Shown here: one piece after another, positions 1 to 7,430 of the stretch
How positions within the stretch are numbered: the first letter of the stretch is position 1
Layout: each line of letters begins with the position of its first letter
NCBI GenBank assembly: GCA_903916665.1
Contig: CAIWXP010000093.1
Coordinates: 1-10,479, forward strand
Source: Candidatus Iainarchaeum sp.
GTDB lineage: Archaea > Iainarchaeota > Iainarchaeia > Iainarchaeales > 0-14-0-20-30-16
DNA length: 10,479 nucleotides
Direction of reading: 5' to 3'
The notes under the pieces: generated by a model
The model's database searches: none
The model's input: only the letters and a program-made list of their open reading frames with translations
What the model was told of the DNA's origin: nothing
Position numbers and translations under genes: made by a program

Positions 1-60
1 AATGATAACACTTTAAATGCAAATGAAGAATATAGTATTGAATTAGATGAAAAACAAGAA

Positions 61-2421
61 ATGGAATCAGAAAATGAAAATACAAATGATTCTGATGAAC
101 ATGAAGAAAAATATGATGATAAAATAAATATAGAATTAACTTTTTTTGAAAATCCGGAAACTGGTCATGCATTGGTTGGAAGAAAACCAAGCGTATTCAA
201 AAAATATGGTGAAGACGCATCATTATATTTAGGAAAAGTTTTTGAACCTAATTATCCAGAAAAAGAAATATACTTTGATTCTTTAGATCCACAGGTAATA
301 TTTGTATGTGGTTCAAGAGGTTCTGGAAAATCCTATATTTTAGGTGTTATTGCAGAAGAGCTTGCGCTAAAAAATAAAAATGTTGGACAAATAGTAATAG
401 ATCCGGTTGGTGTTTTTTGGTCAATGAAATATCCTAACAAAGAGGATAGGGAAATTCAAGAATTACAAAAATATGGTTTGGAACCAAAGGGCTTAGAAAA
501 TGTAATTGTTTTTGTACCTGAAAGTGCAGCAAATAAATTACCCAAGGAAACCTATGATGCCACTTTTACAATTCAGCCTGCATTTCTAACCTCAGAAGAT
601 TGGGCATTAACATTTGGTATTGATAGATTTGCGCCTTCTGGATTATTGTTAGAAAAAGTAATTAAAAATGTTCGTGATGGTTATCGTGCCATAAATGGTT
701 TAATTTTTAGACCCAAAGCAGATAATTACGATATGAATGATATTATTTATTGTTTGGAAAATGATGTTGAATTAAACTCAAAAGAAAGAGGCTATAGAAA
801 GGAATCTATCAGGGCTTTGGTTTCAAGATTTGAAGCTGCAAAAACCTGGGGTATATTTTCAAAAAAAGGAACACCATTAATTGAATTATCTGTTCCCGGC
901 CAATTAACTGTTATTGATACTAGTTTTTTAGATGAAAATGTTTCTGCTTTGCTTGTTGGAATATTAGCAAGAAGAATTTTGAATGCAAGAAAATTAAGTT
1001 CAAGAAAAGAAGCATCTAAAAAAATTAATACTGATTTACCAAACATAGATTTGGAAAATGATATTCCTCCTACTTGGTTATTTTTAGATGAAGCACACAC
1101 TCTAATTCCTTCGGGAAGTTTGGCAACACCCGCATCAAAATCAATTGTAGAATATGTTAAACAAGGAAGAAAGCCAGGTTGTTCATTGGTTGTAGCAACA
1201 CAGCAACCTTCTGCCATAGATACAAGAGTTTTATCTCAGGTAGGAACATTAATAACCTATAAATTAGTTTTTGATGATGATATTAAAGCAGTTTTCAAAA
1301 GATTACCAACAATAGTTCCAAAAAGATTTAGAGAAACTAGTTTTATAAAACGATTAAGCGTTGGTGTTCCATTGTTTGCAGATAAAGTAGAAACAACTTC
1401 AAGAGCTTTTGTTATGACTGTTAGACCAAGAATGAGTCAACATGAAGGAAGAGAAATACAAACTGCTGAAACTCAAGCACAATTAACCGATGATGAAATT
1501 TTAAGAACAATGGTTAGCATTACACAAAATAAAATTAGACAATTTGAAGAATTAGATGTTAGTTCATTGAGAACGCTTTTAAAAATATTAAATATGAAAT
1601 ATAAAACGGATATTGATTTTGATACTCTATCTCAAAAATTAATTGACAGCGAAGTTATTTTAGAAAAAGATAGATATTTTATAACTAAAGAAGCAGAATC
1701 TGAACACTATGAAGAAAAAGTATCCTATCATATTATTGAACCACAATATAATGAAGAAGAAATTTTAGGTTTTGTAAAAAGAAGTACGGGTTGGAGTAAT
1801 TTTACAAATAAAACCGTTTACAGACCAATCTTTAAAGTTAATTATAAAATATTTAACGAAGATGGAAGTTACGTTGACAATGCCTGCTATGTTGATAGTG
1901 TTAAGGTTGAATTTTTACATTTTTTAGATAAAGAATTTGCCTATTCTTCTGGTCTAAGTATTTTAAGAACTTTAGATGCTGATGATATTAGAATATTAAT
2001 TGAATTACCAAAAAAACAAGGATTTGATATGGATTTCTTGAAAGATAATTTTGCTTTTGGTGATGTTAAATTAAAAAATACAATGGATAGATTAGGAACT
2101 TTGGGATTATTAAGAAGAGAAAGAAGAGGAACAAAAAATATTTTCTTTTTAATTAAAAATTTAGAAGTACCAATGAATCCATTGCACAAAGTATTAAGTA
2201 CTTTAGATGATTTGCCAGTTGTTTCTGATCAAATAAAAAAAGAAGATATATTAGAAGCAAGAGCTACTTTTGAAACAGTGAGAAATATTTTAGGAACTCT
2301 ATGGAGCTCAATTAAAATTGATGATATTGAAACGCTTTTAAAACAAGAAGTTTTAGTAACTAATTTAGATACAAAAGATACACAAATTTTTGATTCCTAT
2401 ACAGGAAAGAAAATAAATTAG
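61..2421 (+). CDS. FtsK/HerA-superfamily P-loop ATPase (HerA/DUF87-like) with acidic N-terminal tail and long C-terminal extension containing a winged-helix-like segment
   Basis: 786 aa ORF. Walker A GSRGSGKS is at nt 310-333, Walker B LFLDEAH at nt 1078-1098, and the FtsK/HerA-type ATQQPS motif at nt 1195-1212, followed by VLSQ. The C-terminal third has a MarR-like wing signature, DRLGTLGLLRRERRGTKNIFFLI (about nt 2085-2155). The reading frame stays open from nt 1 to the ATG at 61, so the true N-terminus may lie upstream of the window. Confidence 0.85.
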   Translation: MESENENTNDSDEHEEKYDDKINIELTFFENPETGHALVGRKPSVFKKYGEDASLYLGKVFEPNYPEKEIYFDSLDPQVIFVCGSRGSGKSYILGVIAEELALKNKNVGQIVIDPVGVFWSMKYPNKEDREIQELQKYGLEPKGLENVIVFVPESAANKLPKETYDATFTIQPAFLTSEDWALTFGIDRFAPSGLLLEKVIKNVRDGYRAINGLIFRPKADNYDMNDIIYCLENDVELNSKERGYRKESIRALVSRFEAAKTWGIFSKKGTPLIELSVPGQLTVIDTSFLDENVSALLVGILARRILNARKLSSRKEASKKINTDLPNIDLENDIPPTWLFLDEAHTLIPSGSLATPASKSIVEYVKQGRKPGCSLVVATQQPSAIDTRVLSQVGTLITYKLVFDDDIKAVFKRLPTIVPKRFRETSFIKRLSVGVPLFADKVETTSRAFVMTVRPRMSQHEGREIQTAETQAQLTDDEILRTMVSITQNKIRQFEELDVSSLRTLLKILNMKYKTDIDFDTLSQKLIDSEVILEKDRYFITKEAESEHYEEKVSYHIIEPQYNEEEILGFVKRSTGWSNFTNKTVYRPIFKVNYKIFNEDGSYVDNACYVDSVKVEFLHFLDKEFAYSSGLSILRTLDADDIRILIELPKKQGFDMDFLKDNFAFGDVKLKNTMDRLGTLGLLRRERRGTKNIFFLIKNLEVPMNPLHKVLSTLDDLPVVSDQIKKEDILEARATFETVRNILGTLWSSIKIDDIETLLKQEVLVTNLDTKDTQIFDSYTGKKIN

Positions 2422-2429
2422 GTGATTTG

Positions 2430-3011
2430 ATGGGCATAAAATTATTGCAAGTTAATGAAAATGTTTTATCTTTAATAAATAAAAAGATAGGATCATATTT
2501 TTTAGGAATTATACTTTTTATAGTTGGAATTATATTCGAAATTTACTATTTTTCAGACAAGGATATATATGTTTTGATAATTGGAATTGTATTGATGATT
2601 ATTGGTGTATTGGTATTTCTGTTTACAAAAAGGGAATATTATACATTTGACAAAACACAAAATAAATTATTAATTAGTTTAAAATCGATAGTAAGTAATA
2701 CAACAGATTCAAGAGATTTAAAGAAAATAAAAGAAATTGAATATACTACTTCTACAAAAATATCTACTTCACAAAAGGGATTATCAGTAAATACAACCTA
2801 TTTTATGGTTATAAAATTTGAGGACTCACAGGATATATTTATTTCATTAAATTCTAAAAATCAAAATAGTGTAACTAGCCTTTTAGGTAATTCTAGCTAT
2901 AGATTAACTTGCCAAAAAACTGCTGAATTCTTAAAGGTTCAATTTAAAGAAATAAGTCCGGAGTCCGTAATTAAAGACGCATTTAATTTGGGAAAAAGTA
3001 ACAATATATAA
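2430..3011 (+). CDS. Small membrane protein: two N-terminal TM helices plus a soluble domain of about 125 aa, function unknown
   Basis: Hydrophobic helices YFLGIILFIVGIIFEIYYF and IYVLIIGIVLMIIGVLVFLF lie at about nt 2490-2624. GGTGA at 2421-2425 overlaps the upstream TAG stop and sits 4 nt before the ATG at 2430. The ORF track begins at TTG 2427, which is only 1 nt from the SD, so ATG 2430 is preferred. No recognisable catalytic motif. Confidence 0.7.
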   Translation: MGIKLLQVNENVLSLINKKIGSYFLGIILFIVGIIFEIYYFSDKDIYVLIIGIVLMIIGVLVFLFTKREYYTFDKTQNKLLISLKSIVSNTTDSRDLKKIKEIEYTTSTKISTSQKGLSVNTTYFMVIKFEDSQDIFISLNSKNQNSVTSLLGNSSYRLTCQKTAEFLKVQFKEISPESVIKDAFNLGKSNNI

Positions 3012-3022
3012 AAATTAAAAAA

Positions 3023-3054
3023 GATTGGCAAATTGTTTCTTATACTTGCCAATC
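3023..3054. terminator. Hairpin terminator between convergent genes (stronger for the minus-strand gene)
   Basis: GATTGGCAA (3023-3031) pairs perfectly with TTGCCAATC (3046-3054), giving a 9 bp stem and a 14 nt loop. On the minus strand the hairpin is followed by TTTTTTAATTTTT. On the plus strand only a weak TTTATT follows. Confidence 0.6.
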
Positions 3055-3064
3055 AGTTTATTAA

Positions 3065-4300
3065 TTAAAGATTTTCGGATTTTAAATCAATATTTTTAAC
3101 ATAAACATTTTTTGCAAATATTGCTTTACTTGATAAAAACATTTTATAGATTAATGCAAAGAATGCAATGATAAATATTGCAATAATTATCCAGATTGTT
3201 GATCCTTCTCCAAAACTAAACAAACCTGTGAATGAAGTTCCTAAACTAAAATTTGATTTGTTTACATCTAGATTTTGATCTTCTGCAGTTTGTAAATCAA
3301 TTTCTTTATACAATTGACCTGCAAAATAAACATTTAGATCTTTTTCTTCTTTTTCTGCTTGTAAAAAGTATGTTTGACTAGGTTGTAATAGCAATGAAAA
3401 TTCTCTTTTATTTGTATTAACATCTAAAGAAACATACTCTGTTCCAACATTTGTTATTGCTAATTCTTTTGTATTCTTTGTGTAAGCAACTAAAATATCT
3501 TGGTTTTTTAAAGTTAGGTTTAATTGACCTAAATCTATTTGTTCACCAGATAATGTTTCAATGGCATAGAAATAAATTGGAGTATAATTTATATTATAAT
3601 CTTCATCCATTTTTATTGTTAATATAATATTTCTTTCTTCATCTTTTGATAAAGAAAAATAATTTTCATTAAATGTTAAATTTAATTTGTTTTTATCTGG
3701 AGAATCAACAATTGCACCAATTTTAAATGTTGAACTAGATCCAACATTTTTAAAACTAAATAAAACTGTTTGTTCTTTATTTGCATCAATTAAAATATTT
3801 CTTGTTGAAATATTTTGTAAAACTAATTTTGGTGCTTCATTGGTATAATCTGAAGTTTTATATACTAATTTTTCTTTTGCAATTACTTTTACATTAATTA
3901 TAGTTTCTCTAGTTTCTGTCATTCCATTATAATTTACAGCTGTAATTAATTTAACCGGATAATCGCCGGGTAACTCATTACCTACTTTAATATACAATGG
4001 CAAATCAAAATTTGAAAAATTACTAGTTTTAGGAGTTATATATGCGTATAATGGAGAATCTACTTTTTGATAGAAAGTTAATTCACTATCAGAATTTAAA
4101 CCATAATATATTCTTAATTGATAATCCGTACCCTGTTGTAAAGTTAATGTATTACTCTCAGGGTAAATATCATAGTTTAACTTGTATTGTGCACCAGCAT
4201 TAGCAAAGGCCAAAGCCAATAGTACAAAAGTTACTAACATTAAACCCTTTAATAAAGATTTTGTATCATAATCAAAAACCATAGGATCAGCTCCAATCAT
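3065..4300 (-). CDS. Surface-exposed beta-sandwich (CARDB/NEW3-like) protein with N-terminal signal sequence and C-terminal TM anchor
   Basis: 411 aa. The N-terminal hydrophobic segment LMLVTFVLLALAFANA precedes an A-x-A-type cleavage site. The C-terminal helix TIWIIIAIFIIAFFALIYKMFL is at nt 3134-3199. The middle part has alternating beta-strand patterns typical of CARDB-like modules, for example EQTVLFSFKNVGSSSTFKIGAIV...ERNIILTIKM. This is a fold-level call only. Confidence 0.7.
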   Translation of the reverse strand: MIGADPMVFDYDTKSLLKGLMLVTFVLLALAFANAGAQYKLNYDIYPESNTLTLQQGTDYQLRIYYGLNSDSELTFYQKVDSPLYAYITPKTSNFSNFDLPLYIKVGNELPGDYPVKLITAVNYNGMTETRETIINVKVIAKEKLVYKTSDYTNEAPKLVLQNISTRNILIDANKEQTVLFSFKNVGSSSTFKIGAIVDSPDKNKLNLTFNENYFSLSKDEERNIILTIKMDEDYNINYTPIYFYAIETLSGEQIDLGQLNLTLKNQDILVAYTKNTKELAITNVGTEYVSLDVNTNKREFSLLLQPSQTYFLQAEKEEKDLNVYFAGQLYKEIDLQTAEDQNLDVNKSNFSLGTSFTGLFSFGEGSTIWIIIAIFIIAFFALIYKMFLSSKAIFAKNVYVKNIDLKSENL

Positions 4301-4406: not shown

Positions 4407-5180
4407 ATGGACCAAAAAAAGATTTTATTATTTTGCTTTGCATTTTTACTAATTTTGAGCCCTATTTTTGCCAAAGCTGAAATAAACATAGATATTTTAG
4501 AAAATACCCCTTACATAGACTACACCTTGCCATTTACTTCCAGTTTTAGCATCGATTTACCAGATTTTGGTAATTTAATCTATCTTAAAGTATTGCCCAG
4601 TGATATTAATTATATATTTAATAATGGCAAATTAACAATTAATTCTGCCACTCCTGGAACATTGGTATTAAAATATGAAGGCACGGATTTTTTAGATAAT
4701 CATTCATTCTATGATAAAACTTTAGATTTTAACATATTTCAAGAAACAACAATAAATATTCAATGTGATAAGAACATTTCAAAAATAAATACTTTAGAAA
4801 TAAATAATACTAATTATTCAATAAAAACCAGTGAACCAACTACTTTACACATATTAATAGAAAAGGATCCATTCAGGTGGCAAAATATTCTAATTATATC
4901 ACTTTGTTTAGCGTTTGTAATTATAATTATGGTTCCAATACTATTGAAAAAATTTCCAAAAGAAAAAAAGAAAAAACTATATTTAGATGCAACACAACAA
5001 AAAGTATATGATACGGTTAAAAAACAAAAAGAAATGACACAACAATCTATTGCAAACCAATTAAACCTAAACAAAAGTCATTTAAGCAAGATATTAAACA
5101 AAATGGAAAGAAATGATCTAATTGAAAGAAAGAAAGTAGGAAAAGTAAATAAAATTATTTTAACAGACAATAAAAAATAA
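4407..5180 (+). CDS. Type-I membrane-tethered transcription regulator: signal peptide, ectodomain, single TM helix, C-terminal cytoplasmic winged helix-turn-helix (MarR/ArsR-like)
   Basis: 257 aa. Signal peptide MDQKKILLFCFAFLLILSPIFAKA is at nt 4407-4478. The ectodomain is about 130 aa. The TM helix WQNILIISLCLAFVIIIMVPILL is at nt 4878-4946, followed by a positive-inside KKFPKEKKKK stretch. The wHTH pattern is at nt 4983-5165: QQKVYDTVKKQKEMTQQSIANQLNLNKSHLSKILNKMERNDLIERKKVGKVNKIILT (helix-turn-helix plus a basic wing). Confidence 0.75.
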   Translation: MDQKKILLFCFAFLLILSPIFAKAEINIDILENTPYIDYTLPFTSSFSIDLPDFGNLIYLKVLPSDINYIFNNGKLTINSATPGTLVLKYEGTDFLDNHSFYDKTLDFNIFQETTINIQCDKNISKINTLEINNTNYSIKTSEPTTLHILIEKDPFRWQNILIISLCLAFVIIIMVPILLKKFPKEKKKKLYLDATQQKVYDTVKKQKEMTQQSIANQLNLNKSHLSKILNKMERNDLIERKKVGKVNKIILTDNKK

Positions 5181-5427: not shown

Positions 5428-6570
5428 ATGATAACTAAACTATTAGCAGTTTTAGGCGTATTATTCCTAGCAACAGTAGTATTAGCTAGTGCAGTACATG
5501 CAGATACAAATACAGATAGTAATTCGGGAGCCGGAAATACGCAATTAATTTCAGCAAATGATGGCCCACAAACAGGATCAAATATGGATGGTAATCAAAC
5601 AGATTATCAAACAAAAATAAAAGATCAAATAGAAGAGAAAAAGAAAGAATTACAAGATAAATTAGATAAAGGAAAAGCTAATTTTCAAGATAAAATAGAT
5701 CAGATGAAAGATAAATTAGATAAATTTAAACAACAGGCTAAAGACAGATTAGATAAACTAAAGGAAACACAGGATAATTGGAAACAAGAAAAGGGAAAAT
5801 TTCCTGGTTTAAATATGATGTTAAATAGCCCAGAAGGAAAAATGGCAACAATGCAATATATTCAAGTATTAGGAGATCAAATTGCAGAACATTTTAAAAG
5901 TTTAGCAGATAAAAATGGTCCCTTAGCAAGCTATTGGTTAACAAAACCAGATGAAATAAATTCTATTGTTGCAAATTTAGATTCAAATTCAACAAAAGAA
6001 GATATTTTAAATGCAATACAAGAATTAAAAAAGACTTGGCAAAACAATGAGCCTCAAAGAAAAGCAGCCATTGGAGTAAACTATGTTGATGGTGTAACAA
6101 GAGTTGTTCCAAAGATGGAAAACATATTAAATAGTCTAGATAAAAAATTAGATACTCTTGAAGCAGCAGGTATTGATGATAACACTGCAAGAACACAATA
6201 TTATTTAGCCATTGAAAGTATTGCTAATTTAAAACTAGATTTAACTAATACACAAGAACAATTGAAAACAAAAATCTCAGATACAAATATTGATGTTAAT
6301 TCAATAAATAGTTTATTGAAAACATTAAATGTGGAAGTAAAAGATACTAGAAAAACAATTGTTGATGCAGTTAATGAATTTAATAAATTAAAAAGAGATT
6401 TTGCAAAAGATAAACAAGCAGAAAAAGATCAAAATAGGGTATTTGATGGTAATAGACCAAGAAAACATCCACAAATAAGAGACACAAATAAAGCAGATGA
6501 TCAAAATGGTACGGACCTAAATACAGAAGATGATAATCAAAACACAGCAGATGTAAATCAAGGACAATAG
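5428..6570 (+). CDS. Secreted coiled-coil protein with K/D/Q-rich periodic repeats and acidic/N/Q-rich disordered C-terminal tail
   Basis: 380 aa. Signal peptide MITKLLAVLGVLFLATVVLASAVHA is at nt 5428-5502. A full SD, GGAGGTGA, lies at 5416-5423. A repeated (Q/K)D(K/R)(L/I)D(K/Q) motif recurs with 11-7-11 residue spacing. There is no second TM segment. Confidence 0.75.
   Translation: MITKLLAVLGVLFLATVVLASAVHADTNTDSNSGAGNTQLISANDGPQTGSNMDGNQTDYQTKIKDQIEEKKKELQDKLDKGKANFQDKIDQMKDKLDKFKQQAKDRLDKLKETQDNWKQEKGKFPGLNMMLNSPEGKMATMQYIQVLGDQIAEHFKSLADKNGPLASYWLTKPDEINSIVANLDSNSTKEDILNAIQELKKTWQNNEPQRKAAIGVNYVDGVTRVVPKMENILNSLDKKLDTLEAAGIDDNTARTQYYLAIESIANLKLDLTNTQEQLKTKISDTNIDVNSINSLLKTLNVEVKDTRKTIVDAVNEFNKLKRDFAKDKQAEKDQNRVFDGNRPRKHPQIRDTNKADDQNGTDLNTEDDNQNTADVNQGQ
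5656..5757 (+). repeat. In-frame periodic DNA/protein repeat inside the coiled-coil protein gene
   Basis: GATAAATTAGATAAA occurs exactly at 5656-5670 and 5710-5724. Diverged copies are GATAAAATAGATCAG (5689-5703) and GACAGATTAGATAAA (5743-5757). Spacings are 33, 21 and 33 nt, which is 11, 7 and 11 residues. Confidence 0.7.
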
Positions 6571-6579
6571 GGTGATTAA

Positions 6580-6891
6580 ATGAAATATTTAATTGCAATA
6601 TTATTTATTGGTTTAATTGGATTGGTTGTATTATCTGGTTGTGTAGCTAGCAATCAGAAAGATACAAACACAGGTCCAGAAAATGATCAGTTAACAAAAA
6701 TATCCACCGATTTAAATCAAAACTCAACATTAAACAATACGGATAATCAAATATCCAATGATTTAAACGAACTAAATGTAGATGATAATTCTGCAAACGC
6801 AGATGCATTAGATATAAATAGTTTGGATACTGATCTATCACAAATAGATTCTTTGTTACAAGACCCAGATCCATTTACAACTTTAAATTAA
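6580..6891 (+). CDS. Small putative lipoprotein with N/D/Q/T-rich low-complexity mature region
   Basis: 103 aa. The signal peptide ends in the lipobox LSGC (Cys21 codon at 6640-6642). GGTGATT at 6571-6577 sits 4 nt upstream of the ATG and directly after the TAG stop of the preceding gene. A hairpin plus T-run terminator follows. Confidence 0.6.
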   Translation: MKYLIAILFIGLIGLVVLSGCVASNQKDTNTGPENDQLTKISTDLNQNSTLNNTDNQISNDLNELNVDDNSANADALDINSLDTDLSQIDSLLQDPDPFTTLN

Positions 6892-6941: not shown

Positions 6942-7430
6942 TTATATTGGCCCGTATTGCCTGCCCAAATCAAATTTGTTTTTTGATAAAACTAAAAGCC
7001 ATCTAATATATTTATGATTTATTTGTTTATCATGCCATCTTTTATCAAAATCATCAAATTTTATTTTAAAACATTTGCCATTCCAAGGATCATTCATAAT
7101 TAAATTATCTTTATCATAGCCAATTATTACTGAATAATGGCCATCATTTGAACTAGGTTCTTTGTAGTGAACTATAACGGGTAAACTTAAATCAATAAAA
7201 TGTTTAATATTGTGAATATTTGCGTTTTCATGAACAAAACAATAAAATCCACTTCGTCTAGAAACATCAATCATATATTTATGAATTGTTCCATATAATG
7301 GCTGGGTTTTTGCTAATTTAGATATGTCCTGTTCTTTTATATTTTTTTTAAAAAATGCAAAAACCATTTCTAAACTAGCTGGCCCGCAAGTATATCCTGT
7401 TTTTTGATGATAGTATGGAACTTTTAACAT
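6942..7430 (-). CDS. Stand-alone C39-like (Peptidase_C39_2-type, papain-fold) cysteine peptidase, cytoplasmic
   Basis: 162 aa. The N-terminus VPYYHQKTGYTCGPASLEMV carries an oxyanion Gln and catalytic Cys15. DGHYSVIIGY supplies His98 and IMNDPW supplies Asp114. An in-frame TAG two codons upstream of the ATG (minus strand, 7434-7436) rules out a longer N-terminus or signal peptide. Confidence 0.85.
   Translation of the reverse strand: MLKVPYYHQKTGYTCGPASLEMVFAFFKKNIKEQDISKLAKTQPLYGTIHKYMIDVSRRSGFYCFVHENANIHNIKHFIDLSLPVIVHYKEPSSNDGHYSVIIGYDKDNLIMNDPWNGKCFKIKFDDFDKRWHDKQINHKYIRWLLVLSKNKFDLGRQYGPI

What the first reader, a model, noticed from the sequence alone, without database searches (positions are those of the whole stretch)
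61..3011. FtsK/HerA-type ATPase with unusual architecture, translationally coupled to a 2-TM protein: candidate membrane-docked translocase or defence module
Seen in sequence: the ATPase core (Walker A at 310-333, Walker B at 1078-1098, ATQQPS at 1195-1212) covers only about residues 75-460 of 786. It is preceded by a D/E/N-rich acidic tail. It is followed by an extension of about 320 aa that I cannot assign, apart from a MarR-like winged-helix segment (LGTLGLLRRERRGTKNIFF, about nt 2085-2155) and a possible second one near nt 1560-1700. The TAG stop (2419-2421) overlaps a GGTGA SD, and the next ATG is at 2430, so the 2-TM protein is almost certainly co-transcribed and co-translated. Established knowledge: FtsK/HerA/VirB4-clade hexameric ATPases pump DNA or protein through membrane-associated pores. 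Canonical HerA sits with NurA/Mre11/Rad50, none of which are here. The crenarchaeal Ced DNA-import system pairs a HerA/VirB4-like ATPase with small membrane proteins. HerA-like ATPases are also partners in anti-phage systems such as SIR2-HerA and DUF4297-HerA. Inference: this pair may be a nucleic-acid-binding ATPase recruited to the membrane by the 2-TM partner, in a combination I do not recognise as a described system.
Basis: partly seen in the sequence, partly recalled or inferred. Interest (0 to 1): 0.75.

Follow-up and report, generated by a model that had tools for sequence, protein, structure and literature searches.

The report
Lineage-wide HerA-type ATPase, orphan membrane neighbour
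The large gene is one member of an uncharacterised HerA-type ring ATPase family carried by hundreds of Iainarchaeota (DPANN archaea) and bearing a unique DNA-binding-like tail, while the small membrane gene behind it occurs only in this contig and is not a conserved partner.

Summary
The sequence observations are accurate, with one error. The ATPase gene is cut by the 5' end of the contig, so the "acidic tail" is really an internal linker. Full-length relatives carry about 70 more residues, starting with a conserved short motif (MFDIFDTI).

The ATPase has a HerA-clade fold. It belongs to a family found in 321 species-level genomes, essentially all Iainarchaeota/Diapherotrites, and scores far below every curated HerA or VirB4 cut-off.

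Its C-terminal extension is conserved across the family. A confident AlphaFold model resolves it as a tandem duplication of a winged helix plus a PepSY-like alpha/beta unit. That module occurs nowhere outside this family and has no match among solved or viral structures.

The 2-TM ORF is probably a real gene co-transcribed with the ATPase here. It has no homolog anywhere and sits in a ~640-bp insertion that the closest relatives (74-78% identity) lack. No NurA, Mre11, Rad50, defence effector or conserved membrane partner accompanies the family.

Best reading: a stand-alone housekeeping hexameric DNA translocase with DNA-binding winged helices and an N-terminal tether. I do not read it as a membrane-docked pair or a defence module. 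Its function remains inferred.

The parts
1..2421 (+). HerA-clade ATPase gene, cut at its 5' end by the contig end. The annotated ATG at 61 is probably internal.
   Evidence: The frame is open from nt 1. Homologs are 831-877 aa with a conserved N-terminus. Pfam DUF87 scores 56 bits against a cut-off of 23.
1..135 (+). Tail end of a low-complexity D/E/N/K-rich linker. In full-length relatives this linker joins an N-terminal D-[IL]-F-[DE]-[DE]-[VIL]-[FL] motif to the motor.
   Evidence: Alignments. Motif and composition analysis gives E 26% and K 17% across the family. pLDDT is below 50 for res 1-21.
136..1452 (+). HerA-type motor (res ~26-464). It has a small N-terminal beta domain and a RecA-like core with Walker A (310-333), Walker B (1078-1098) and ATQQPS (1195-1212). 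It also has an invariant basic helix (R304 R305 R310 K311 R315) and an invariant RPRMSQHEGR end motif.
   Evidence: Foldseek top hits are all HerA hexamers, at E 3.6e-18 to 1e-13. Model pLDDT is above 90.
1489..1683 (+). Winged helix 1 (res 477-541).
   Evidence: The AF2 model shows three helices plus a beta hairpin. N511, K513 and Y514 are nearly invariant.
1720..1947 (+). PepSY-like alpha/beta unit 1 (res 554-629), one helix plus four strands. It ends in the invariant GEFLHF...ES.G motif.
   Evidence: AF2 models. hhalign aligns this repeat with repeat 2 at probability 94%, E 1.1e-7.
1954..2151 (+). Winged helix 2 (res 632-697), of TrmB/MarR/MecI type with a basic wing (RRERRGTK).
   Evidence: Pfam TrmB hits 31 of 49 family members. 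The family profile hits MecI and MarR in the PDB. Foldseek matches ArsR/Lrs14/MarR/TubR at rmsd 2-3 A over about 70 residues.
2188..2418 (+). PepSY-like alpha/beta unit 2 (res 710-786), ending ...FDSYTGKKIN.
   Evidence: Pfam PepSY scores above its gathering cut-off at the aligned C-terminus of four homologs, at 24.9-34.4 bits against 24. AF2 model.
2419..2429 (+). Junction: the TAG stop overlaps the GGTGA Shine-Dalgarno, which lies 5 nt before the ATG at 2430.
   Evidence: The same type of SD precedes the other operon-internal genes of the window.
2430..3011 (+). Orphan 193-aa protein with two TM helices and a ~125-aa soluble domain of unknown fold. It lies in a lineage-specific ~640-bp insertion (2422-3064).
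   Evidence: It matches only itself in the 5.8-billion-protein collection. It has no hit in 88 loci. The DNA alignment with L001 and L003 shows the insertion. Pfam, PDB and PADLOC give no match.
3018..3059 (.). Inverted repeat (GATTGGCAA...TTGCCAATC) between the convergent genes. It may be a bidirectional transcript end.
   Evidence: the repeat finder pair I10. The consensus scan does not call it a terminator.

Best explanation
The large ORF is the 5'-truncated copy of a housekeeping, stand-alone HerA-clade ATPase specific to Iainarchaeota (Diapherotrites).

Shown here:
- It has the HerA monomer fold with complete ATPase motifs.
- Its domain order is conserved: a short N-terminal motif, a long E/K-rich linker, the motor, then two repeats of [winged helix + PepSY-like unit].
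- It occurs in hundreds of species in varied housekeeping neighbourhoods.

Inferred:
- It assembles into a hexameric ring and translocates double-stranded DNA through its pore, as all structurally characterised HerA proteins do.
- The MarR/MecI-type winged helices, with their basic wings, load or orient the ring on DNA. This would be comparable in logic to the FtsK gamma domain.
- The N-terminal motif on its flexible linker tethers the motor to an unidentified cellular partner.
- The likely role is chromosome maintenance, either segregation/decatenation or end processing.

The 2-TM gene is a strain-specific accessory ORF inserted at a variable spot behind the ATPase gene. It is probably co-transcribed here but is not part of the machine.
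For: HerA identity:
- All top Foldseek hits are HerA hexamers (9x1m at 3.6e-18, 4d2i, 7wrw and others, 430-520 aligned columns).
- Pfam DUF87 is above its cut-off, and HerA_C matches 48 of 49 members.

Spread and conservation:
- 321 species genomes hold a relative. Those that carry a taxon name are almost all labelled Iainarchaeota/Diapherotrites, and they include two complete genomes.
- At least 951 protein clusters match, with about 44% identity across the family and more than 100 invariant positions.

Extension:
- The model is confident (pLDDT 89 for the whole protein, 93.5 for the extension).
- The extension is an internal duplication.
- TrmB and PepSY hits occur in family members, and the profile hits MecI/MarR.
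- Only 39 of 1.84 billion representative proteins match the module, and all are family members or their fragments.

Housekeeping character:
- Neighbours are GlmS/PGM/GlmU, tRNA and ribosomal genes, with SMC within about 8 kb in 14 loci.
- Three members carry inteins inside the P-loop.
- A single TBP-fold gene, a DNA-binding fold, follows the ATPase directly in about 16 of 75 loci.

2-TM ORF not a partner.
Against: - No experiment or multimer model supports hexamer formation or a DNA substrate here.
- The full-length pTM is only 0.61, so the placement of the extension relative to the ring is unknown.
- PepSY domains are normally extracytoplasmic protein-interaction modules, so the extension may bind proteins and not DNA.
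- The wHTH matches are generic.
- The binding partner of the N-terminal motif is unknown.
- I could not determine whether these genomes also encode canonical HerA/NurA, so the choice between repair and segregation is open.
- Proximity to SMC may only reflect inherited gene order.
- In this strain the 2-TM gene is tightly coupled to the ATPase gene, so a local functional link cannot be excluded.
Confidence: 0.6

Rival explanations
1. The ATPase and the 2-TM protein form a membrane-docked translocase, like Ced or type IV secretion, that moves DNA or protein across the membrane.
For: - An 8-nt gap and a genuine operon-internal SD make co-translation likely.
- The ORF is too long to arise by chance.
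- In the window's clade the gene is flanked by surface proteins, and upstream by type IV pilin-like genes.
Against: - The 2-TM protein has no homolog in 5.8 billion proteins or in 88 family loci.
- The closest relatives lack it.
- Pilin-like and surface genes flank only the relatives at 70% identity or more.
- The family has no TM segment and no recurrent membrane neighbour.
- VirB4 scores 20 bits against a cut-off of 643.
Confidence: 0.04
2. An anti-phage defence HerA module, of the SIR2-HerA or DUF4297-HerA type, with an unrecognised effector.
For: - PADLOC HerA models hit at 1.4e-21 and mad8 at 7.6e-17.
- Antiphage HerA structures are among the top fold matches.
- The slot behind the gene is variable and holds an NTP_transf_2 gene in one relative.
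Against: - The hits cover only the shared ATPase core.
- NCBIfam antiphage HerA equivalogs score 43-46 bits against cut-offs of 800-850.
- No SIR2, DUF4297 or nuclease neighbour appears in any locus.
- Lineage-wide conservation with over 100 invariant residues, in housekeeping contexts, is unlike defence genes.
Confidence: 0.05
3. It is simply the Iainarchaeota ortholog of repair HerA. It would work with a NurA nuclease encoded elsewhere in DNA end resection, with the extension as a lineage-specific decoration.
For: - The best fold matches are archaeal HerA-NurA complexes (9x1m, 4d2i).
- Inteins and strong conservation fit a repair or replication protein.
Against: - The helicase_HerA equivalog scores 43 bits against a cut-off of 970, no better than the antiphage HerAs.
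- No NurA/Mre11/Rad50 lies within 6-8 kb in any locus.
- The N-terminal beta domain, where NurA docks on HerA, is reduced to about 50 residues.
Confidence: 0.2
4. The motor acts on a protein or RNA substrate, or is an ATP-dependent regulator. The PepSY-like units would bind a protein client and the winged helices would serve as protein-interaction modules.
For: - PepSY domains are known protein-binding or inhibitor modules, and Pfam PepSY hits are above cut-off in homologs.
- The extension as a whole has no DNA-binding counterpart in the PDB.
Against: - All characterised HerA-clade motors act on DNA (my knowledge, plus the hit list).
- wHTH-2 has a basic wing and matches DNA-binding repressors.
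- An invariant basic helix sits in the core.
- The recurrent neighbour has a TBP fold.
Confidence: 0.12

Closest known systems
Archaeal HerA (the HerA-NurA DNA end-resection helicase, e.g. Sulfolobus 4d2i and Thermococcus 9x1m)
   Same: It shares the monomer fold over about 430-460 aligned positions, the Walker A and B motifs, the TQxPS sensor and the GRK motif. It probably forms a hexameric DNA-translocating ring.
   Different: - Sequence similarity is very weak (14-19% identity, 43 bits against a cut-off of 970).
- There is no NurA/Mre11/Rad50 linkage.
- The N-terminal barrel is reduced.
- It has a 320-aa C-terminal [wHTH + PepSY-like]x2 extension, plus an N-terminal motif and a long charged linker.
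FtsK/SpoIIIE DNA pumps
   Same: They belong to the same superfamily and share the design logic: an N-terminal localisation element, a long low-complexity linker, the motor, and a C-terminal winged helix that reads DNA (the gamma domain).
   Different: - It is not a member. Pfam FtsK_SpoIIIE matches only 3 of 49 members, weakly.
- The fold is closer to HerA.
- The N-terminal element is a short motif, not a 4-TM domain.
- It has two winged helices interleaved with PepSY-like units.
- The resemblance is an analogy, not a tested homology.
Antiphage HerA partners (SIR2-HerA/Nezha, DUF4297-HerA, TdpAB)
   Same: The HerA ATPase core, with Foldseek E-values of 1e-13 to 1e-16.
   Different: There is no effector gene, the protein is conserved lineage-wide in housekeeping contexts, and it scores far below the curated cut-offs.
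Ced DNA-import system (CedB ATPase plus the small membrane proteins CedA, CedA1 and CedA2)
   Same: In this one contig, a HerA/VirB4-like ATPase sits next to a small 2-TM protein.
   Different: The 2-TM protein is an orphan, the adjacency is absent in all relatives, and there is no polytopic CedA-like gene. No sequence model of Ced was available to test.
Bacterial DUF853/YjgR (HerA_C) ATPases
   Same: 48 of 49 family members match Pfam HerA_C, and some database entries are named 'DUF853 family protein'.
   Different: The matches are weak and partial (the window protein scores 17.9 bits against a cut-off of 22). DUF853 proteins lack the wHTH/PepSY extension.

Membership tests
Pfam DUF87 / HerA central domain (PF01935) | Score above the gathering cut-off (23.2 bits) | tested here: met
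   56.1 bits, E 7.4e-15, res 82-306. 48 of 49 family members match.
HerA clade (structural) | RecA-like core with the HerA-specific inserts, and fold matches to HerA before any other ATPase | tested here: met
   The top 50 Foldseek PDB hits are all HerA or TdpA hexamers, at E 3.6e-18 to 7e-13 and TM (target) 0.4-0.58.
HerA clade (structural) | Full-size N-terminal HAS barrel | tested here: inconclusive
   Only four short strands (res 28-72) precede Walker A in the model. No residue-level superposition was available.
HerA clade (structural) | Hexameric ring | not testable with these tools
   No multimer prediction was available.
Canonical repair HerA (NCBIfam NF040819 / NF040937) | Equivalog score cut-off | tested here: not met
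   43.0 bits against 970, and 38.3 against 800.
Canonical repair HerA | Gene linkage with nurA, mre11 and rad50 | tested here: not met
   None appears in 8 annotated loci. No recurrent nuclease-like neighbour cluster appears in 88 loci.
Antiphage HerA systems (NF042943 / NF042944; SIR2-HerA, DUF4297-HerA) | Equivalog score and an adjacent effector (SIR2, DUF4297) | tested here: not met
   45.8 bits against 850, and 43 against 800. PADLOC found no effector among the neighbours. The contexts are housekeeping.
VirB4 / type IV secretion ATPase (TIGR00929) | Family score cut-off | tested here: not met
   20.3 bits against 643.
FtsK/SpoIIIE (PF01580) | Pfam match, N-terminal TM anchor and a gamma domain | tested here: not met
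   The window protein has no hit. Only 3 of 49 members match, at E of about 0.002 and below the cut-off. No TM segment is present.
Ced DNA import system | CedB together with conserved CedA/A1/A2 membrane proteins | tested here: not met
   No conserved membrane neighbour exists, and the 2-TM ORF is an orphan. Homology to CedB itself was not tested, because no model or sequence was at hand.
TrmB/MarR-type winged helix | wHTH fold and a family match | tested here: met
   - The window protein itself has no Pfam hit, but 31 of 49 aligned members match TrmB (best E 2.6e-8).
- The family profile hits MecI and MarR.
- Foldseek gives rmsd 2-3 A to ArsR/Lrs14/MarR.
PepSY (PF03413) | Score above the gathering cut-off (24 bits), and a helix plus four-stranded sheet | tested here: inconclusive
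   - The window protein is below threshold.
- Four homologs score 24.9-34.4 bits at the aligned C-terminus.
- The model shows one helix plus four strands in both units.
- No structural hit to a solved PepSY domain was returned.

The most novel reading that the evidence does not exclude
This family would be the FtsK-like chromosome pump of Iainarchaeota. It would be a HerA-derived hexameric dsDNA translocase tethered by its N-terminal DIFDEVF motif and long linker to the division or replication machinery. Its duplicated winged-helix/PepSY module would load or orient it on the chromosome, possibly together with the small TBP-fold protein often encoded next to it. That would be an independent archaeal solution to late chromosome segregation.
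Probability: 0.15. Interest if true: 0.8.

Novelty: new variant of a known kind. Interest (0 to 1): 0.42.

Why it matters
How most archaea clear and segregate their chromosomes at division is still poorly understood, and they generally lack FtsK. HerA was proposed long ago, from comparative genomics, as a possible archaeal counterpart.

This family is conserved across a lineage and is intein-bearing. It combines a HerA-clade motor with DNA-binding-type winged helices and an N-terminal tether, an architecture that mirrors FtsK in its logic. That makes it a concrete, testable candidate in DPANN archaea with small genomes.

Even if it proves to be a repair helicase, the [winged helix + PepSY-like]x2 module is a previously undescribed accessory domain arrangement on a ring ATPase.

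The practical lesson for the scan is that the tight gene pair that drew attention is a strain-specific accident, not a system.

Tried and rejected
- **2-TM homologs.** I searched with the search for homologous proteins, blastp and tblastn against 88 loci, Pfam, NCBIfam, PADLOC and PHROGs, and the soluble domain alone against PDB and Pfam. Nothing significant came back. A PH-like fold remains my unsupported guess.
- **Mobile-element signature around the 640-bp insertion.** I found only AT-rich chance repeats.
- **Bacterial-type promoters and terminators.** The scan was uninformative.
- **Pilus or Ced-like link.** Class III signal-peptide genes flank the ATPase only in the window's clade. Rejected as a family feature.
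- **Conserved downstream partner.** Most loci have a convergent gene next. Rejected.
- **Literature.** Four full-text searches found no description of this family. A fifth search, on canonical HerA/Mre11/Rad50 in DPANN archaea, did not settle that question. Iyer et al. 2004 was not held.
Full report
**1. What is in the sequence**

The window is a whole 10,479-bp contig with about 27% GC.
- Walker A GSRGSGKS at nt 310-333
- Walker B LFLDEAH at nt 1078-1098
- ATQQPS at nt 1195-1212

The TAG stop at 2419-2421 overlaps GGTGA, and an ATG follows at 2430. That downstream ORF encodes 193 aa with two strongly hydrophobic helices.

In this window, GGTGA-like Shine-Dalgarno sequences 4-5 nt upstream of the start occur before operon-internal genes (5428, 6580, 8469). 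They are absent before the first genes of transcription units. Co-transcription of the 2-TM ORF with the ATPase gene is therefore plausible. A 194-codon open frame is not expected by chance at this base composition (about 3e-4 per window).

**2. One error in the observation**

The reading frame is open from nt 1 to the ATG at 61 (NDNTLNANEEYSIELDEKQE-M...). All close homologs (62-84% identity, 831-877 aa) have about 70-90 further N-terminal residues beginning MFDIFDTI. In the 84%-identical P0001 the structured part begins at residue 114, against residue 43 of the extended window translation.

The gene is therefore cut by the contig end. The "D/E/N-rich acidic tail" is the distal part of an internal low-complexity linker.

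Across the family, a short motif D-[IL]-F-[DE]-[DE]-[VIL]-[FL] sits near the N-terminus. An E/K-rich linker follows it (E 26%, K 17%), which places Walker A at a median position of 226.

**3. The ATPase family**

- Pfam gives DUF87 (56 bits against a cut-off of 23) and a weak HerA_C match.
- NCBIfam HerA equivalogs, both repair and antiphage, score 38-46 bits against cut-offs of 800-970. VirB4 scores 20 against 643.
- PADLOC HerA and mad8 hits cover only the core.
- An AlphaFold2 model built on 116 sequences is confident (pLDDT 89.2).
- Its top 50 Foldseek matches in the PDB are all HerA-type hexamers: T. kodakarensis HerA-NurA at 3.6e-18, S. solfataricus HerA, D. radiodurans HerA, SIR2-HerA, DUF4297-HerA and TdpA.

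So this is a HerA-clade motor that lies about equally far, in sequence, from every characterised HerA subfamily.

Spread and conservation:
- At least 951 protein clusters match, at E of about 1e-200 and roughly 44% identity.
- Relatives occur in 321 species-representative genomes. Among the 80 best loci listed, many records are labelled only 'archaeon' or 'uncultured archaeon'. Those that carry a taxon name are almost all Iainarchaeota/Diapherotrites (including Forterrea), apart from two bins labelled Thaumarchaeota and Micrarchaeota. They include the complete genomes CP010424 and CP064981.
- More than 100 positions are invariant across 116 sequences. These include a basic helix (R304, R305, R310, K311, R315) and an RPRMSQHEGR motif that closes the core.
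- Three members carry inteins inside the Walker A loop. To my knowledge, that pattern is typical of conserved housekeeping nucleic-acid enzymes.

**4. The C-terminal extension**

It is conserved family-wide. A dedicated model (pLDDT 93.5) resolves it into four parts:
- winged helix 1 (res 477-541)
- an alpha/beta unit of one helix plus four strands (554-629)
- winged helix 2 (632-697)
- a second alpha/beta unit (710-786)

hhalign aligns the two halves with each other (probability 94%, E 1.1e-7), so the extension is a tandem duplication.

Winged helix 2 is of TrmB/MarR/MecI type:
- Pfam TrmB matches 31 of 49 members.
- The family profile hits MecI and MarR in the PDB.
- Foldseek matches ArsR, Lrs14, MarR and TubR at 2-3 A.

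The last unit passes Pfam's PepSY cut-off in four homologs (24.9-34.4 bits). The window protein itself stays below the threshold.

The module as a whole has no match in the PDB or in BFVD. An exhaustive phmmer search of 1.84 billion representative proteins found only 39 matches. All were at the C-terminal end of family members or of their fragments. At this sensitivity the module is exclusive to the family.

**5. Context, and the test of the pairing**

The 2-TM protein matches only itself among 5.8 billion proteins. It has no blastp or tblastn hit in 88 loci around family members.

The slot behind the ATPase gene varies within the window's own clade:
- In the closest relatives (P0003 at 78%, P0005 at 74% identity) the ATPase stop is followed after about 50 nt by the convergent ~410-aa surface-protein gene.
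- The window has an extra ~640 bp there, containing the 2-TM ORF.
- A third relative has different genes at that spot, including an NTP_transf_2 gene.

The downstream genes (the ~410-aa surface protein, a membrane-tethered MarR, a secreted coiled-coil protein and a 103-aa protein) are syntenic only in 7 close loci. An upstream block of class III signal-peptide (pilin-like) genes is likewise confined to that clade.

In distant members the neighbours are GlmS/PGM/GlmU, tRNA and ribosomal genes, with SMC within about 8 kb in 14 loci. NurA, Mre11, Rad50 and defence effectors never appear.

Of 75 distinct loci with downstream sequence, most have a convergent gene next. The only recurrent same-strand neighbour is a ~100-aa single TBP-fold protein (Pfam TBP 26.6 bits against 22.9). 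It is adjacent in about 16 loci and nearby in about 6 more.

**6. Interpretation**

Shown:
- a HerA-fold ATPase with a complete catalytic set
- a conserved and unique domain order
- lineage-wide distribution in housekeeping contexts
- an orphan, inserted 2-TM gene

Inferred, from the behaviour of all characterised HerA proteins and from the DNA-binding character of the winged helices, the basic helix and the TBP-fold neighbour:
- It forms a hexameric dsDNA translocase acting in chromosome maintenance.
- The C-terminal winged helices load or orient it on DNA.
- The N-terminal motif and linker tether it to an unknown partner.

In logic this mirrors FtsK (anchor, linker, motor, gamma winged helix). 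Membership in FtsK/SpoIIIE was tested and not met, so the resemblance is an analogy only.

I rate the general statement (a stand-alone housekeeping HerA-clade nucleic-acid motor, with the 2-TM ORF not a partner) at about 0.6. The specific FtsK-like segregation role I rate at about 0.15.

Rivals are listed separately with their evidence:
- repair HerA ortholog with NurA encoded elsewhere: 0.2
- protein or RNA substrate: 0.12
- defence module: 0.05
- membrane-docked pair: 0.04

**7. Novelty and verdict**

No paper in the held library describes this family. Database entries call it "hypothetical", "DUF87 domain-containing" or "ATP-binding protein".

It is a new variant of a known kind: a HerA-clade ATPase with a previously undescribed [wHTH + PepSY-like]x2 module and an N-terminal tether.

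Interest is moderate. The family is a worthwhile target for archaeal chromosome biology, but its function rests on inference. Decisive tests could not be run here: a whole-genome inventory of HerA/NurA/FtsK, hexamer-DNA modelling, broader fold searches and biochemistry.

Noticed in passing
L019:3905-4210, L025:4656-4958, L085:8413-8715 and about 19 other loci (not in the window): A ~100-aa protein made of a single TBP-fold domain (Pfam TBP above cut-off) lies directly downstream of the ATPase, on the same strand with a gap of 7-82 nt. This holds in about 16 of 75 loci, and the gene is a few kb away in about 6 more. It is the only recurrent same-strand neighbour and a possible DNA-binding partner.
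   Followed up: partly
L001:251-1544(-), L003:2774-5431(-), L004:3289-5951(-), L010, L014 (beyond the window's 5' end): A divergent block of four ~200-240-aa genes begins with class III (archaeal type IV pilin-like) signal peptides, e.g. KKGQA or KGQADTVFEVLIAVILLGF. No PilB/FlaI-type ATPase is visible nearby. The block is confined to the window's clade.
   Followed up: partly
P0152 (1492 aa), P0002 (1299 aa), P0013 (1277 aa): Inteins with homing-endonuclease domains are inserted inside the Walker A P-loop (GSGK|C...HN|S) of family members.
   Followed up: partly
homolog N-termini (e.g. P0001 res 1-8, P0037 res 26-33); absent from the window because of the contig break: A conserved short linear motif D-[IL]-F-[DE]-[DE]-[VIL]-[FL] is followed by a 100-250-aa E/K-rich linker. 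Its binding partner is unknown, and it does not fit a canonical PIP box.
   Followed up: partly
window 4407-5180 (+): This protein has a signal peptide, an extracellular domain, one TM helix and a cytoplasmic MarR/DUF7343 winged helix, so it looks like a membrane-tethered transcription regulator. It is conserved next to the ~410-aa surface protein (3065-4300, -), a secreted coiled-coil protein (5428-6570) and a 103-aa protein (6580-6891) in 7 close relatives.
   Followed up: partly
window 792-1217 (-): This 141-aa antisense ORF inside the ATPase gene recurs in 62 loci only because it mirrors the conserved ATQQPS region. It is not a gene.
   Followed up: yes
L004:8588-10563: In one relative, the slot that holds the 2-TM ORF in the window holds three other genes (351 aa, 59 aa and an NTP_transf_2/Polbeta nucleotidyltransferase). 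The spot seems to be a small hot spot for accessory genes.
   Followed up: no
window 1909-1953 (res 617-631): The motif GEFLHF...ES.G lies at the junction of PepSY-like unit 1 and winged helix 2. E617, S629 and G631 are invariant and H620 is nearly invariant across 116 sequences. Its function is unknown, and its geometry could not be inspected because no coordinates were available.
   Followed up: no
window 6942-7430 (-): A stand-alone C39-type cysteine peptidase domain (161 aa) has no ABC transporter attached. It sits next to Sua5, GDPD and an MFS transporter.
   Followed up: no
L005:18040-19150, L006:16286-18580 and 12 other loci: An SMC gene lies about 6-8 kb downstream of the ATPase in 14 loci, within a block that also holds GlmS/PGM/GlmU and a wHTH+S_layer_C protein. 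This may only reflect inherited gene order.
   Followed up: no
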